64,000 nucleotides of DNA from Escherichia coli O127:H6 str. E2348/69 (GCF_000026545.1 NC_011601.1), one strand, 5' to 3'; positions 39,901 to 45,900 are shown, numbered from the stretch's first letter. Made by a program: the numbers.

Positions 39901-42900
39901 GCATAATGAGCCAGGGTTCGCAGGTGGCGGGGTTCAGTACCGATTATTTAATCGATCTTGTCACACGCTTTATTAACTGGCAGATGATTGGGGCCATTTT
40001 TGTTTTATTCGTGGCCTGGTTATTCCTGTCACAATGGATTCGCATTACCGTTTTTGTGGTTGCCATTCTGCTATGGCTGAACGTACTTACCCTGGCGGGA
40101 CCAAGTTTCTCCTTGTGGCCAGCCGGTCAACCAACGACCACTGTAACAACGACGGGTGGTAACGCAGCGGCAACCGTTGCGGCGACGGGTGGCGCACCGG
40201 TAGTGGGTGATATACCCGCACAAACTGCACCGCCAACAACAGCAAACCTTAACGCCTGGCTGAATAATTTCTATAACGCGGAGGCGAAACGTAAATCGAT
40301 CTTCCCGTCTTCGCTGCCCGCTGATGCTCAGCCATTTGAACTACTGGTGATTAATATCTGTTCGCTTTCCTGGTCGGATATTAAAGCCGCCGGATTGATG
40401 TCGCATCCACTGTGGTCGCATTTCGATATTGAGTTCAAGAACTTTAACTCCGCCACCTCCTACAGTGGCCCGGCGGCGATCCGTTTACTGCGCGCCAGCT
40501 GCGGGCAGACTTCGCACACTAATCTGTATCAACCGGCAAATAACGACTGCTATCTGTTTGATAACCTGTCGAAACTGGGCTTTACCCAGCACCTGATGAT
40601 GGGACATAACGGCCAGTTCGGTGGTTTTTTGAAGGAAGTTCGCGAAAATGGCGGCATGCAGAGCGAATTGATGGATCAAACAAATCTGCCGGTTATTTTG
40701 CTGGGCTTTGATGGTTCGCCGGTTTATGACGATACCGCCGTGCTTAACCGTTGGCTGGACGTTACCGAAAAAGATAAAAACAGCCGTAGTGCCACGTTCT
40801 ACAACACGCTTCCACTGCATGACGGCAACCATTATCCGGGCGTCAGCAAAACAGCGGATTACAAAGCGCGGGCGCAAAAATTCTTTGATGAACTGGACGC
40901 CTTCTTTACTGAACTGGAGAAATCGGGTCGTAAAGTGATGGTGGTCGTGGTGCCGGAACACGGCGGCGCGCTGAAGGGCGACAGAATGCAGGTATCTGGT
41001 CTACGTGATATCCCTAGCCCGTCTATCACAGACGTCCCCGTTGGGGTGAAATTCTTCGGCATGAAGGCACCACATCAGGGGGCTCCGATTGTCATCGACC
41101 AACCGAGCAGCTTCCTGGCTATCTCCGATCTGGTGGTTCGCGTTCTTGATGGCAAGATTTTCACCGAAGACAATGTTGACTGGAAAAAACTCACCAGTGG
41201 GTTACCACAAACAGCACCGGTCTCTGAGAACTCAAATGCAGTAGTTATTCAATACCAGGATAAACCGTACGTTCGCCTGAACGGCGGCGACTGGGTGCCT
41301 TACCCGCAGTAAGAACGAATAAATATCCTCCGGCATAGCCGGAGGTTTTTCAAATGCGCCTATAAGACTCTCTTACCTGCCGCGCCCTAACAGGCGCACA
41401 CGATCTGACATTTGCATCCAACTTCGTTACTTACGGCCCGTAAACGGGCTGCCCGGATAGGGAATCGATAACTGCTCTCCCATTTTATCCTCTTCAAGCT
41501 GGTGCTTTATGTAATCCTGTATCTTCGCCGTGTTCTTACCCACCGTATCGACGTAATACCCTCTGCACCAGAACTCCCTGTTCCTGTACTTGAATTTCAA
41601 ATCACCAAACTGCTCGTAAAGCATCAGACTGCTTTTCCCTTTCAGATATCCCATAAAGCCGGATACGCTCATTTTGGGCGGGATCTCCACAAGCATATGG
41701 ATATGATCTGCACAGCATTCAGCTTCCAGAATCCGTACACTTTTCCACTCACACAGCTTTCTCAAAATACAGCCTATTGCTCTACGCTTCTCTCTGTAGA
41801 ACACCTGTCTTCGGTATTTTGGCGCAAATACTATGTGATATTTACAGTTCCATCGGGTGTGCGCTAAGCTCTTTTCGTTCCCCATTGGGACCCCCTTTTG
41901 ATTTCTTGTTTGACACTTGCAGTTGCCAGACCGCAAGGTGTTTTAACAAATCAAAAGGGGTTTTAATAACTGGCTCAAAGCTGAAAGCTTTCCGGACCCC
42001 CCAGCCTAGCTGGGGGTTTTCTGTGCACAAAAAGGCCGCAGAGTTTCCCCCTGCGGCCTGATCCGGGCGCAAATTGCCATTACGGCAGCCTGACGCCCGC
42101 ATGACACGTTACTTCCGCTTATTCAGCCAGTTCACGATCATACTGGCAAGAATGCCAGCAATGACCGGAGCCGCTAAATCATGCCAGAAGGCCATGCCCA
42201 GTTCTGCGAGCGTCATATAGCCGCCTGTGTTGTAATGACAACGTTTCGCGGCTATTCTTGAGTGGTCTAGGTTCAAGATTAGCCCCCGTGATGTTGTCAG
42301 GTGCATACCTGCAACGTGCGGGGGTTTTCTCTCTCCAGCAACCAATGCCACCAGGGATTAAGCCCCCGCAACATTGCGCCTCACCGGAACCTTTCCGGCT
42401 TGCCGCTGATTCTACGACTGTTTTTCTGCTCCGGAATCCATCACTTCTTCACTCTGTGCTGCGCATTCCGCAGAATATTATCCGCTTGCAACCGTTGCAT
42501 TTTTCTTACGAAAAAGGCCGCAGAGTTTCACCTCTGCGGCCTGGTCCGGGCGCAAATTGCCATTACGGCAGCCTGGCGCCCGCATGACACGTTACTTCCG
42601 CTTGTTCAGCCAGTTCACGATCATACTGGCAAGAATGCCAGCAATGACCGGAACCGCTAAATCATGCCAGAAGGCCATGCCCAGCTCTGCGAGCGTCATA
42701 TAGCCGCCTGTGTTGTAATGACAACGTTTCGCGGCTATTCTTGAATGGTCTAGATGCAAGAATGGCCCCCGTGATGTTGTCAGGTGCATACCTGCAACGT
42801 GCGGGGGTTTTCTCTCTCCAGCAACCAATGCCACCAGGGATAAAGCCCCCGCAACATTGCGCCTCACCGGAACCCTTCCGGCTTGCCGCTGATTTTACGA

Positions 42901-45900
42901 TTGCTTTTTGCCGTCAGCACCCGGCAATCTTCCTCATTGCGTGATGCCTTCCAGCTTAATTTCTTTATTTGCAATAGTTGCAGCTCATATCCGGGCTGAC
43001 TCCAGACTAGTAGTGAAATGCGCAATTTTGTAGAATTGCGCCTCCTCGCGACCTCCCCAGTGAATCTGTTGCCTCATTTTTTACATACTGCGTATTCGAC
43101 TTCTCCACCTGTTGCGCAAGAGAAACTGGGTTTATTCATTTTTGCGAGGCCGACTTCTTTCTGGACAGGACTTTATGCAGCACAACACACTACCGAAACA
43201 CGATCAGAAATTGCCGTTTACACGCTACGACTTCGGCTGGGTTTTATTATGCATAGGCATGGCGATTGGTGCCGGAACCGTGCTGATGCCAGTACAAATT
43301 GGATTGAAGGGAATTTGGGTATTTATTACCGCAGCGATCATTGCTTATCCTGCCACCTGGGTAGTACAGGACATTTATTTAAAAACCCTTTCTGAAAGCG
43401 ATTCCTGTAATGACTACACCGATATTATCAGTCATTACCTGGGGAAGAACTGGGGAATTTTCCTCGGGGTTATCTACTTTTTGATGATTATCCACGGGAT
43501 TTTTATCTACTCTCTCTCCGTGGTTTTCGACAGCGCCTCGTACCTGAAAACCTTCGGTTTAACCGATGCCGATCTTTCTCAATCTCTATTTTATAAAGTC
43601 GCCATTTTCGCCGTACTGGTGGCGATTGCGTCTGGTGGTGAACGATTACTGTTTAAGATTTCCGGGCCAATGGTGGTGGTCAAAGTGGGGATTATTGTCG
43701 TGTTCGGTTTTGCGATGATCCCGCACTGGAATTTCGCCAATATAACCGCCTTCCCGCAAGCCTCCGACTTTTTCCGCGATGTCCTGCTTACTATTCCATT
43801 TTGCTTCTTTTCCGCAGTATTTATTCAGGTACTTAACCCAATGAATATTGCCTATCGTAAACGGGAAGCGGATAAAGTACTGGCAACCCGGCTCGCGCTG
43901 CGTACCCACCGGATTAGCTATATCACGCTCATTGCGGTGATCTTGTTTTTTGCCTTTTCGTTTACCTTCTCAATTAGCCACGAAGAAGCCGTTTCTGCCT
44001 TTGAACAAAATATCTCGGCACTGGCACTGGCCGCGCAGGTGATCCCTGGGCATATCATTCATATCACCTCTACGGTGCTGAATATCTTTGCCGTACTGAC
44101 TGCATTCTTTGGCATTTATCTCGGTTTCCACGAGGCCATTAAAGGCATTATTCTCAATCTGTTAAGCCGAATTATTGATACCAGGAAAATTAACTCACGC
44201 ATGCTGACTCTGGCGATCTGCGCTTTTATCGTCATTACGTTGACGATTTGGGTTTCGTTTCGTGTATCGGTGCTGGTGTTCTTTCAGTTGGGAAGCCCGT
44301 TATATGGCATTGTGTCGTGCCTCATTCCATTTTTCCTGATCTCTAAAGTTTCACAACTGAAAAAACTACGCGGGCTAAAAACATGGCTTATCCTGTTTTA
44401 TGGTATTTTGCTGTGCTTTTCGCCGCTATTGAAGCTGATTGAATAAAAGTAACGGGGGCTGCTCACAGCAGCCCCAGACGATGTCGATAGCATTGCAGCA
44501 CAGCCTGGATATGATCCTGAGTCATAAAGGACTGCTCATACGTTTCCATAACAATGGCATTTTCTTTACGTATATCCTGAAAGAGTTTTTCCAGCAATCT
44601 GGGCGCTAACCCCATTGATTCACCCAACAGCAAAAAGTCCTGCCCGATATACTCGCCATAATCACTGTGAAATCCAGGAGCCAGTTCCCGACCGCCTTCT
44701 TCTCGCGTCAATAACGGCAGCGCCAGATAGTTTGAGTAAAAATATTCCGGATAGGGAGCGACAGAAACAAAGTCATACACCGGCGCTAACGCAGGCGTCA
44801 AACCATCGGAGTACACTAAGCCAAAGTTTCGTAAATGCATGTCGTTATTACCCAGCAACCAGGCGTAAACAATGCGACGAAAGAGATCGATTTTAAATGC
44901 GATGTTGTCGTTAACATGGGCAACTAAAAATCGGGCCAGCGTTTCATAGCTGACATATTGTTCGTTATCATTCCCCGTTTTGCCATATTTATCTGTAATC
45001 TGCATCGCGCCATCAAGCTGTTCCTGATGCACTGGCAGCCCCTTGTTATCCCGGTCATAGCGCCGGATAACAAATGCGTATTCAAGCTCTTCCTCTGATT
45101 GTGGTGCAAAACTCAACAGGCCATGCACAGGTACGTCAAATCCCAAACGAGACATCAATGTCATTGTTGCGTGTTCATTTTCGGCCAAACCGGGAAAGTC
45201 GGCTGGAGAGGGCTTAAGGATAAAATTTCCCTGATGATCTACGACGCGGAACTCTCCTTCATCCAGCACTAATTGCAATTTGGGCTGGTAACCGGAAATA
45301 CTCATCCCTTTTTGTTGACGCGGAAGTTCCTGCACAAACTGAGTTCGCGTAAACCCCAGCCGAGGATTCAATTTTGCAGTGCCGCTCAGTCGCTTCAACC
45401 CCTGTGTCGAATATCCGCGCTGTTCGTCACGTTCATTCAACGGCGTTAACAGAATACGACAATTCGCCATTATTCCTCCCAAGGTAAAATCTGGATGGCC
45501 CCCAGCAGATTCTTGCCGTTATCAATAAGCATTCCCAGCAGATCGTTTTCGTCACGATGCTGTATCTGGCTGTAGCGTTGACGCAGCCATCCTTCTGGCG
45601 CCAGTGAGGCGAAATAAGGATGCAACGTCTCACTGGGAAACTGACGCTGTGCGACGGGCAGACTGATTGAGATTGCCGGTCCGTGGTAATCGTGGGCGTA
45701 CTGGAACAAAAAACCACTGTCGTTCTGAGAGAGTTCACCCACTACCTGACCATAGAGCAACACTTTCACTCGCCGATGCATAGTTTCACTCCAAGAACAT
45801 TCGCCACCGCGAACACACTGCCGAATTTAACCTGTTCAGGATCCTTAAAAAGTCGCTTTAACGTGGACGTTGAGATCCCCGTTTGTAGTTCAAGTGTGTA

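What the first reader, a model, noticed from the sequence alone, without database searches (positions are those of the whole stretch)
42029..42994. Tandem duplication of the ldr/rdl type I toxin-antitoxin unit
Two ~483-bp units each carry a 35-aa Ldr toxin ORF, a terminator hairpin and an opposite-strand Rdl-like antisense region. The copies have diverged: the toxins differ by A16V and the rdl regions carry several substitutions, so this is not an assembly duplication. K-12 has a single ldrD/rdlD at this locus as I recall.
Basis: partly seen in the sequence, partly recalled or inferred. Interest (0 to 1): 0.45.

Follow-up and report, generated by a model that had tools for sequence, protein, structure and literature searches.

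The report
Two-copy ldrD/rdlD toxin-antitoxin array
The window holds two real, adjacent copies of the known E. coli ldrD/rdlD small-toxin and antisense-RNA module; this is ordinary, because most sequenced E. coli carry two to five copies at this site and lab strain K-12, with one, is in the minority.

Summary
Two direct 483-bp units lie at 42029-42994. Each has an intact 35-aa Ldr toxin gene on the minus strand, an intrinsic terminator, and an Rfam-scoring Rdl antisense RNA on the plus strand. The peptides differ only by A16V.

The window is E. coli E2348/69 (100% identity), and RefSeq already annotates both genes as Ldr-family toxins. K-12 does have one copy between bcsG and yhjV. That is not the typical state, however. 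The unit-to-unit junction is intact in 3,304 of 5,426 complete E. coli genomes, arrays of 1-5 units were read directly, and the search implies up to 6. Tandem ldr copies next to bcsG also occur in Klebsiella, Kluyvera and other Escherichia species. Tandem duplication of ldr-rdl has been in the literature since 2002-2010. Verdict: real, functional-looking, already known, low interest.

One side observation may be new. The most variable part of the unit is the 5' tail of Rdl. On the ldr mRNA this corresponds to the loop of a hairpin whose stem is kept by compensatory changes. This could be a recognition code that separates neighbouring copies, as shown for Sib/Ibs, but it is untested.

The parts
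42029..42511 (.). LDR-D unit 1 (bcsG-proximal), the extra copy relative to K-12
   Evidence: Direct repeat with spacing 483 and alignment A1. Its upstream 85 nt are junction-type sequence that K-12 lacks.
42512..42994 (.). LDR-D unit 2 (yhjV-proximal), the positional orthologue of K-12 ldrD/rdlD
   Evidence: It aligns at 96.7% with the K-12 ldrD locus over 606 shared positions, through the upstream region as far as the extract ending at 43111, just short of yhjV.
42109..42216 (-). ldr copy 1, a 35-aa toxin (A16; equals K-12 LdrD except F3L)
   Evidence: ORF and translation. Pfam PF13940 at 93.2 bits. RefSeq CDS WP_001295224.1, named ldrD.
42592..42699 (-). ldr copy 2, a 35-aa toxin (V16)
   Evidence: ORF and translation. 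Pfam PF13940 at 89.8 bits. RefSeq CDS WP_000170747.1.
42265..42330 (+). rdl copy 1, a 66-nt antisense RNA opposite the ldr 5' UTR
   Evidence: Rfam RF01813 at 90.4 bits, model positions 1-66 of 66. Folds as a single-stranded 5' tail, a long hairpin and a U tail, -31.7 kcal/mol, z -4.9. Terminator-like site at 42308-42322.
42748..42813 (+). rdl copy 2, a 66-nt antisense RNA
   Evidence: Rfam RF01813 at 82.9 bits. Same fold, -32.3 kcal/mol, z -4.5. Terminator-like site at 42791-42805.
42029..42059 (-). intrinsic terminator of ldr copy 1 (stem 42059-42033 plus T run)
   Evidence: scan_promoters_terminators: 11 pairs, 8 of them G-C, followed by TTTTT. The IS200 copy abuts the end of the T run.
42511..42542 (-). 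intrinsic terminator of ldr copy 2
   Evidence: scan_promoters_terminators: 11 pairs, 8 of them G-C, followed by TTTTT.
42250..42284 (-). predicted hairpin in ldr mRNA 1 (GGCUAAUCUUGA - 11-nt loop - UCAAGAAUAGCC). The 5' side of the loop is complementary to Rdl nt 1-8.
   Evidence: Local and full 5'-UTR folds. Covariation of the inner stem across 45 distinct sequences: 91.9% of cells paired, 4 of 6 pairs with compensatory changes, 0 of 500 shuffles reach the observed values.
42733..42767 (-). predicted hairpin in ldr mRNA 2 (alternative stem register AUUCUUG/CAAGAAU, loop CAUCUAGACCAUU)
   Evidence: Local fold and alignment A2.
42409..42414 (-). candidate -10 box (TAGAAT) of ldr copy 1. The two units diverge about 10 nt upstream of it, so their -35 regions differ. 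Inferred only.
   Evidence: Read from the sequence. The end of inter-unit homology is near 42425. The consensus promoter scan reported no site.
42892..42897 (-). candidate -10 box (TAAAAT) of ldr copy 2. Inferred only.
   Evidence: Read from the sequence. Same register as in unit 1 (+483).

Best explanation
This is a two-unit array of the chromosomal LDR-D element, that is, two complete ldrD/rdlD type I toxin-antitoxin modules, lying between bcsG and yhjV in E. coli E2348/69.

On the minus strand each unit encodes an ldr mRNA with a long 5' UTR, a 35-codon membrane-toxin ORF and an intrinsic terminator. On the plus strand each unit encodes a 66-nt Rdl RNA that is fully complementary to its own ldr 5' UTR, 49-114 nt upstream of the start codon.

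By analogy with K-12 ldrD/rdlD, Rdl pairs with the ldr mRNA, the duplex is cut by RNase III, and toxin translation is blocked post-transcriptionally. The block may work through a translationally coupled leader frame (the ldrX model). Overproduced Ldr arrests growth.

The array is one allele of a copy-number-variable locus (1-5 units read directly in E. coli, a maximum of 6 implied by the place counts). It most likely expands and contracts by unequal recombination between 483-bp units. Unit 2 is the positional counterpart of the K-12 copy and unit 1 is the additional one.

Shown here: sequence anatomy, family membership, synteny and population frequency. Inferred from K-12 work: transcription, toxicity, and repression by Rdl.
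For: Repeat and anatomy. Family assignment: Pfam Ldr_toxin at 93.2 and 89.8 bits; Rfam rdlD at 90.4 and 82.9 bits, above the gathering score of 50; Rdl fold.

Identity of the window and existing annotation of both genes. K-12 has a single ldrD/rdlD at the same site and a three-unit ldrABC array elsewhere. Unit 2 is 96.7% identical to the K-12 ldrD locus through to just short of yhjV.

Population: the junction query 42425-42600 is intact in 3,304 of 5,426 complete genomes and gives 12,209 places in 5,301 genomes. Places per genome equalled the unit count in all 12 genomes read. A spread sample of 60 genomes gave 23, 7, 17, 12 and 1 genomes with 1, 2, 3, 4 and 5 units.

Other genera: 1-3 tandem ldr copies next to bcsG in Klebsiella, Kluyvera and Escherichia sp..

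Literature: tandem ldr-rdl and lineage-specific duplications (PMC2887945); Rdl represses LdrD, and the ldrX model is unproven (PMC4147584); RNase III-cleaved ldrD/rdlD dsRNA in K-12 (PMC7373196).
Against: There are no expression data for either unit in this strain (the literature search found none). The consensus sigma-70 scan found no promoter in the region, so the -10 and -35 boxes I name are weak matches read by eye.

The two units differ upstream of the -10 box, so one could be poorly transcribed. NCBIfam returned no model hit for the peptides, although RefSeq names them Ldr family.

The step from Rdl binding to translational block is not settled even in K-12 (PMC4147584). An in-frame upstream AUG (42306 and 42789) that runs into ldr without a stop fits the published description of ldrX only loosely.
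Confidence: 0.9

Rival explanations
1. The second copy is an assembly or collapse-expansion artefact, and the real genome has one unit as in K-12.
For: Tandem repeats of about 0.5 kb are a classic source of mis-assembly. TRF did not call the repeat.
Against: The units differ at 16 substitutions plus an indel and have different upstream flanks. Three independent E2348/69 assemblies agree at 100%. The same junction occurs in 3,304 complete genomes.
Confidence: 0.01
2. One of the two units is a decaying, non-functional relic, and only one module is active.
For: The two units have different sequence upstream of the -10 box. Unit 2 carries A16V and scores lower against the Rfam model (82.9 vs 90.4 bits). 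No expression data are available.
Against: Both have an intact 35-codon ORF, the same Shine-Dalgarno context, a terminator, an Rdl above the gathering score and the same Rdl fold. Unit 2 is the orthologue of the experimentally studied K-12 copy. V16 also occurs in another lineage (EC28 unit 2). Codon position 2 is the least variable across 28 distinct units, with pi 0.008 against 0.045 at position 3, which indicates purifying selection on the peptides.
Confidence: 0.07
3. The duplication is a recent, strain-specific event, perhaps promoted by the adjacent IS200.
For: An IS200C copy abuts unit 1. K-12 has one copy.
Against: Two-unit arrays 99.0-99.8% identical to this one exist without IS200 in many strains (H8-H40). 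Arrays of 2-5 units occur in many unrelated strains from varied hosts and countries. The IS lies outside the array, in the A run after the terminator. Only 7 genomes share the IS-bearing arrangement.
Confidence: 0.02

Closest known systems
E. coli K-12 ldrD/rdlD (LDR-D; Kawano et al. 2002, cited in PMC4147584)
   Same: Same chromosomal site (bcsG-yhjV). The 35-aa peptide differs by F3L (unit 1) or F3L plus A16V (unit 2). Same 66-nt Rdl hairpin, terminator and 5' UTR. Unit 2 is 96.7% identical through to just short of yhjV.
   Different: There are two units instead of one. The Rdl 5' tails differ from K-12 RdlD (GUCUAGAGUC in K-12, GUCUAGGUUC in unit 1, GUCUAGAUGC in unit 2). An IS200 sits next to the array.
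E. coli K-12 ldrA-ldrB-ldrC / rdlA-C tandem array (kdsA-chaA locus)
   Same: Tandem head-to-tail LDR units of about 0.5 kb, each with an ldr and an rdl. Same architecture and same peptide family.
   Different: Different locus and subgroup. The period is 535 bp rather than 483 bp. The units are only about 68-73% identical in DNA, and the peptides differ at about a third of residues.
Multi-copy type I toxin-antitoxin families whose antitoxins tell copies apart: ibs/sib (PMC2943612) and zorO-orzO / zorP-orzP (PMC8167048)
   Same: Families of near-identical toxin/antisense modules, some in tandem in one intergenic region. Small sequence differences in the antisense RNA are concentrated in recognition regions. 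Here the Rdl 5' tail is the diversity hotspot.
   Different: Cognate-only repression was shown experimentally for Sib and Orz. Nothing comparable was found for Rdl. Rdl overlaps the 5' UTR, not the coding region.
hok/sok (plasmid R1 and chromosomal copies)
   Same: The proposed mechanism is similar: a stable toxin mRNA with a long 5' UTR and a short unstable antisense RNA with a single-stranded 5' tail that targets the leader region rather than the toxin start codon. A leader ORF is proposed to couple translation (PMC4147584, PMC8167048).
   Different: The toxin family is unrelated: Pfam reports only Ldr_toxin. The Rfam sok model scores only 26-29 bits against a gathering score of 59.

Membership tests
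Ldr/Rdl (LDR) type I toxin-antitoxin, LdrD subgroup | 35-aa hydrophobic toxin peptide of the Ldr family | tested here: met
   Pfam PF13940 Ldr_toxin, residues 1-35 of 35, at 93.2 and 89.8 bits against a cutoff of 27. One or two substitutions relative to K-12 LdrD.
Ldr/Rdl (LDR) type I toxin-antitoxin, LdrD subgroup | cis-encoded antisense RNA of about 66 nt on the opposite strand, matching the rdlD model | tested here: met
   Rfam RF01813, full-length hits at 90.4 and 82.9 bits against a gathering score of 50.
Ldr/Rdl (LDR) type I toxin-antitoxin, LdrD subgroup | Rdl structure: single-stranded 5' tail, long GC-rich hairpin, U tail | tested here: met
   Minimum-free-energy folds of -31.7 and -32.3 kcal/mol, z-scores -4.9 and -4.5, with identical topology. 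Terminator-like sites.
Ldr/Rdl (LDR) type I toxin-antitoxin, LdrD subgroup | [quoted passage not shown] | tested here: met
   Rdl at 42265-42330 against the ldr AUG at 42216-42214, a gap of 48 nt. The same geometry holds in unit 2.
Ldr/Rdl (LDR) type I toxin-antitoxin, LdrD subgroup | Long direct repeat unit of about 0.5 kb containing the whole module with its terminator | tested here: met
   483-bp period. Terminators at 42059-42033 and 42542-42515.
Ldr/Rdl (LDR) type I toxin-antitoxin, LdrD subgroup | LDR-D chromosomal position between bcsG (yhjU) and yhjV | tested here: met
   RefSeq annotation of E2348/69 and of K-12.
Ldr/Rdl (LDR) type I toxin-antitoxin, LdrD subgroup | Both RNAs are transcribed: a stable ldr mRNA and an unstable Rdl | not testable with these tools
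   No transcript data are held, and the literature search found none for this strain. The promoter scan found no consensus site.
Ldr/Rdl (LDR) type I toxin-antitoxin, LdrD subgroup | The peptide is toxic on overexpression, and cognate Rdl relieves toxicity | not testable with these tools
   Shown only for K-12 LdrD/RdlD (PMC4147584).
hok/sok type I toxin-antitoxin | Hok-family toxin and an RNA matching the Sok model | tested here: not met
   Pfam reports only Ldr_toxin. The Rfam sok model RF01794 scores 26.5 and 29.3 bits against a gathering score of 59, on the ldr strand.

The most novel reading that the evidence does not exclude
The Rdl 5' tail and the loop of a conserved hairpin in the ldr 5' UTR form a hypervariable recognition pair that lets each Rdl act preferentially on its own ldr mRNA. 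On this reading, tandem units are kept as insulated modules rather than redundant copies.

Evidence:
- Among 28 distinct units from 12 E. coli strains, nucleotide diversity over Rdl nt 1-16 is 0.184, against 0.02-0.09 elsewhere and 0.045 at third codon positions. Only 3 of 5,000 column shuffles give as high a maximum for a 16-nt window.
- On the ldr strand this region folds as a hairpin whose inner stem is kept with compensatory changes across six genera. 91.9% of cells are paired, 4 of 6 pairs change on both sides, and 0 of 500 shuffles reach the observed values. The G-U pairs are valid only on the ldr strand.
- The loop is the most variable segment across genera, at 0.96 bits per column against 0.29-0.52 elsewhere.
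- Units within one array nearly always carry different loops, although EC28 units 1 and 3 are identical.
- For the two units of this window, the predicted tail duplex falls from about -35/-37 kcal/mol (cognate) to -21 kcal/mol (non-cognate).

Caveats: loops are the least constrained parts of any RNA. The full-length non-cognate duplexes remain very stable (-126 kcal/mol). The first six Rdl nucleotides are identical in the two units here. The sample is small and its sequences are related by descent. I could not read Kawano 2002 or Kawano 2012 to see whether this was already noted.
Probability: 0.3. Interest if true: 0.45.

Novelty: already known. Interest (0 to 1): 0.15.

Why it matters
As stated, the finding matters little. 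It re-identifies an annotated, well-known type I toxin-antitoxin module in a reference pathogen, and its two-copy state is one common allele of a variable array.

Two practical points follow:
- K-12 is a poor reference for ldrD copy number. About 61% of complete E. coli genomes carry at least 2 units at this site, so work that assumes one ldrD per genome would undercount.
- The array offers a natural test of whether cis-encoded antitoxin RNAs of near-identical neighbours cross-react. The variable Rdl tail and ldr loop pair is a concrete, cheap hypothesis to test by swap experiments.

Tried and rejected
Searches and scans that gave nothing:
- Tandem Repeats Finder returned no rows for 40000-45000. 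The repeat was found by the repeat finder and by alignment instead.
- The consensus promoter scan found no sigma-70 site in 41900-43200, so promoter elements are only read by eye.
- NCBIfam gave no hit for either peptide.
- The Kawano 2012 review (doi 10.4161/rna.22757) is not held, and Fozo 2010 has no supplements held. I therefore could not check the exact definition of ldrX or the published per-strain Ldr counts.
- Literature searches found no study of Rdl cognate discrimination and no E2348/69 expression data for rdl.

Readings rejected:
- Assembly artefact: the copies are diverged, three assemblies agree, and thousands of genomes share the junction.
- IS200-driven or strain-specific duplication: the same array exists without the IS in many strains, and the IS lies outside the array.
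- hok/sok membership: the sok hit is below threshold and there is no Hok domain.
- Confounding of the junction count by the ldrABC array: K-12, which has that array, matches only the terminal 53% of the junction query, at a single place.
- RNAalifold on the short hairpin alignment recovered only 4 of the 6 inner pairs, with a weak energy of -1.66 kcal/mol. The stem rests on the pair counts, not on that prediction.
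Full report
**Observation**

The repeat finder gives a 300-nt direct repeat, 42048-42347 vs 42531-42830, at 96% identity and a spacing of 483. A pairwise alignment of 42029-42511 and 42511-42994 shows homology over about 397 columns, with 16 substitutions and one indel. After that the last roughly 85 nt of each unit diverge.

Each unit carries the following features:
- **Toxin ORF:** a 35-codon ORF on the minus strand, at 42109-42216 and 42592-42699. The peptides are MTLAELGMAFWHDLAAPVIAGILASMIVNWLNKRK and the same with V16.
- **Terminator:** a strong terminator-like hairpin just downstream of the ORF, at 42059-42033 and 42542-42515.
- **Antisense RNA:** a full-length match to the Rfam rdlD model RF01813 on the plus strand, at 42265-42330 (90.4 bits) and 42748-42813 (82.9 bits), against a gathering score of 50.

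Both peptides match Pfam Ldr_toxin from end to end, at 93.2 and 89.8 bits. Both Rdl candidates fold into the same shape: a single-stranded 5' tail, a long GC-rich hairpin and a U tail, with z-scores near -4.5 to -4.9. The four differences between the two Rdl sequences are at nt 7, 9, 15 and 17.

**Where the window comes from, and what is already annotated**

The 2.4-kb stretch around the finding is 100% identical to three independent assemblies of E. coli E2348/69 (EPEC O127:H6). In RefSeq both ORFs are already annotated as type I toxin-antitoxin system Ldr family toxins, one of them named ldrD. They lie between bcsG and yhjV.

K-12 MG1655 has one ldrD/rdlD pair at the same site and a three-unit ldrA-B-C array at kdsA-chaA. 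Alignment shows that unit 2, next to yhjV, is the positional orthologue of the K-12 copy. It is 96.7% identical over 606 shared positions, as far as the compared extract reaches (43111, just short of yhjV). Unit 1, next to bcsG, is the additional unit. Its upstream 85 nt are unit-to-unit junction sequence that K-12 lacks. The ldrABC-type units are only about 68-73% identical to these.

**How common the arrangement is**

I used the junction between the units (42425-42600) as a query, because it can only match contiguously where two LDR-D units are adjacent. It is intact (at least 80% covered in one place) in 3,304 of 5,426 complete E. coli genomes. K-12 and O157:H7 strains match only the terminal 53%.

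Reading 11 further loci showed arrays of 2 to 5 units at exactly this site, always with about 483-bp spacing and always annotated as Ldr-family toxins:

| Units | Strains read |
|---|---|
| 2 | EcN, M505, UTAK-8, MDR_56 |
| 3 | EC28, Nord58 |
| 4 | STEC379, APEC O78, 2015C-3121 |
| 5 | 2017-02-2CC |

In all 12 genomes read, counting K-12, the number of places reported equalled the number of units. On that basis the spread sample of 60 genomes contains 23, 7, 17, 12 and 1 genomes with 1, 2, 3, 4 and 5 units. The totals (12,209 places in 5,301 genomes, maximum 6) give a mean of 2.3 units. The single copy of K-12 is therefore the minority state, and two copies is an unremarkable allele.

The adjacent IS200C is not involved. 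It sits at about 41324-42028, outside the array, inserted in the A run at the end of the unit-1 terminator. Arrays 99.0-99.8% identical to this one exist without it (H8-H40).

**Beyond E. coli**

An exact-pattern scan of one genome per species, using an 18-nt conserved Rdl segment, returned 54 stretches. A local tblastn showed ldr genes immediately downstream of bcsG in Escherichia, Citrobacter, Salmonella enterica arizonae and diarizonae, the Klebsiella oxytoca group, Kluyvera and Pseudocitrobacter.

Copy numbers at that site were:
- **3 copies:** K. spallanzanii, K. michiganensis, Kluyvera sichuanensis.
- **2 copies:** K. oxytoca, Escherichia sp. E1V33, the E. coli representative genome, and one of the two Kluyvera ascorbata assemblies (L053).
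- **1 copy:** the remaining hits.

The site is therefore old and tandem amplification is recurrent. This agrees with Fozo et al. 2010, who describe ldr-rdl as repeated in the same intergenic region and infer lineage-specific duplications. Their alignment figure already includes an E2348/69 Ldr sequence (PMC2887945).

**Mechanism**

What the sequence shows is two complete modules. Each has an ldr transcription unit with a long 5' UTR and a terminator, and an Rdl gene whose product is perfectly complementary to its own ldr 5' UTR, 49-114 nt upstream of the AUG. Rdl therefore does not cover the ribosome-binding site.

The rest is taken from K-12 work. LdrD overproduction is toxic and RdlD relieves it. 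The proposed route is a hok/sok-like block of a leader frame (ldrX) to which ldr translation is coupled, but this remains unproven (PMC4147584, PMC8167048). An RNase III-cleaved ldrD/rdlD duplex has been captured in vivo (PMC7373196).

In both units an AUG at 42306 or 42789, lying opposite the Rdl hairpin loop, opens a frame that runs without a stop into ldr. I could not read the primary description of ldrX to say whether this is the same frame.

Candidate -10 boxes (TAGAAT at 42414-42409, TAAAAT at 42897-42892) were read by eye, and the consensus scan reported no promoter. The two units diverge about 10 nt upstream of these boxes, so their -35 regions differ and their expression levels may differ too.

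**Side observation**

I aligned 34 units (28 distinct) from 12 E. coli strains. The peptides are almost invariant. Diversity at codon positions 1, 2 and 3 is 0.019, 0.008 and 0.045. Over Rdl nt 1-16, however, it is 0.184, and the peak 12-nt window is 42262-42273. Only 12 of 100,000 random 16-column sets reach that value, and only 3 of 5,000 column shuffles give an equally high maximum window.

On the ldr strand this segment folds as a hairpin, GGCUAAUCUUGA - loop - UCAAGAAUAGCC. The 5' side of its loop is the complement of Rdl nt 1-8. Across 45 distinct sequences from six genera, the six inner pairs are formed in 91.9% of cells. Four of the six pairs show changes on both sides (17 cells), with 0 of 500 shuffles reaching the observed values for cells paired, cells changed on both sides, pair types and covariation score, and 10 of 500 for the count of pairs changed on both sides. 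Slid controls pair in at most 52% of cells. There are 11 G-U cells, which would be C-A mismatches on the other strand, so the signal belongs to the ldr RNA.

The loop is the most variable segment across genera, at 0.96 bits per column against 0.29-0.52 elsewhere. Units within one array usually have different loops. For the two units here, the predicted tail duplex falls from about -35/-37 kcal/mol (cognate) to -21 kcal/mol (non-cognate), while the full duplexes stay very stable at -126 vs -140 kcal/mol.

This resembles the Sok-tail/hok-loop design and the recognition domains that make Sib and Orz RNAs copy-specific (PMC2943612, PMC8167048). It may instead simply reflect lack of constraint on a loop. 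I found no paper addressing it, but the primary LDR papers are not in the library.

**Verdict**

Interest is low (0.15). The only element that might be new is the hypervariable Rdl-tail/ldr-loop pair. I give it a 0.3 probability of being a true specificity determinant and moderate interest if it is.

Noticed in passing
window 41324-42028 (tnpA 41427-41885 minus strand; Rfam STnc490 41895-42018 minus strand): An IS200C copy is inserted in the A run immediately after the unit-1 ldr terminator, between bcsG and the array, in the same orientation as ldr. Only 7 of 5,426 genomes cover at least 80% of the IS-bearing query.
   Followed up: partly
window 44463-45482 (minus strand): A 339-aa ORF annotated in RefSeq as a HipA-family type II toxin lies between yhjV and the dpp operon. 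In K-12, dppF follows yhjV directly.
   Followed up: no
window 42214-42367 and 42697-42850 (minus strand): Sub-threshold matches of the Rfam 'sok antitoxin (CssrC)' model RF01794 to the ldr 5' UTR strand, at 26.5 and 29.3 bits against a gathering score of 59. The reason for the resemblance is unexplained.
   Followed up: no
window 42250-42284 and 42733-42767 (minus strand); alignment A2: A hairpin in the ldr 5' UTR has a stem kept by compensatory changes across six genera. Its loop, the complement of the Rdl 5' end, is hypervariable, and it is the diversity hotspot of the whole unit.
   Followed up: yes
window 42306-42304 and 42789-42787 (minus strand): An AUG inside the Rdl-overlapped region is in frame with ldr, with no intervening stop. 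It would give a 65-aa N-terminally extended Ldr. The residues encoded across the variable Rdl-tail region differ between units (LILNLD vs PFLHLD), so this stretch is not conserved as protein.
   Followed up: partly
loci L014-L067 (species-representative genomes): An ldr gene directly downstream of bcsG is conserved in Escherichia, Citrobacter, Salmonella enterica arizonae and diarizonae, the Klebsiella oxytoca group, Kluyvera and Pseudocitrobacter, with 1-3 tandem copies. A 503-bp contig labelled Bacillus sp. (L057) carries an E. coli-like ldrD and is probably contamination.
   Followed up: partly
window 6440-6553, 589-660, 50456-50498, 52734-52814, 52911-52984: Other Rfam hits above the gathering score in the window: GadY, ES205, ES036, naRNA4 and a tRNA. 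These are ordinary E. coli features.
   Followed up: no
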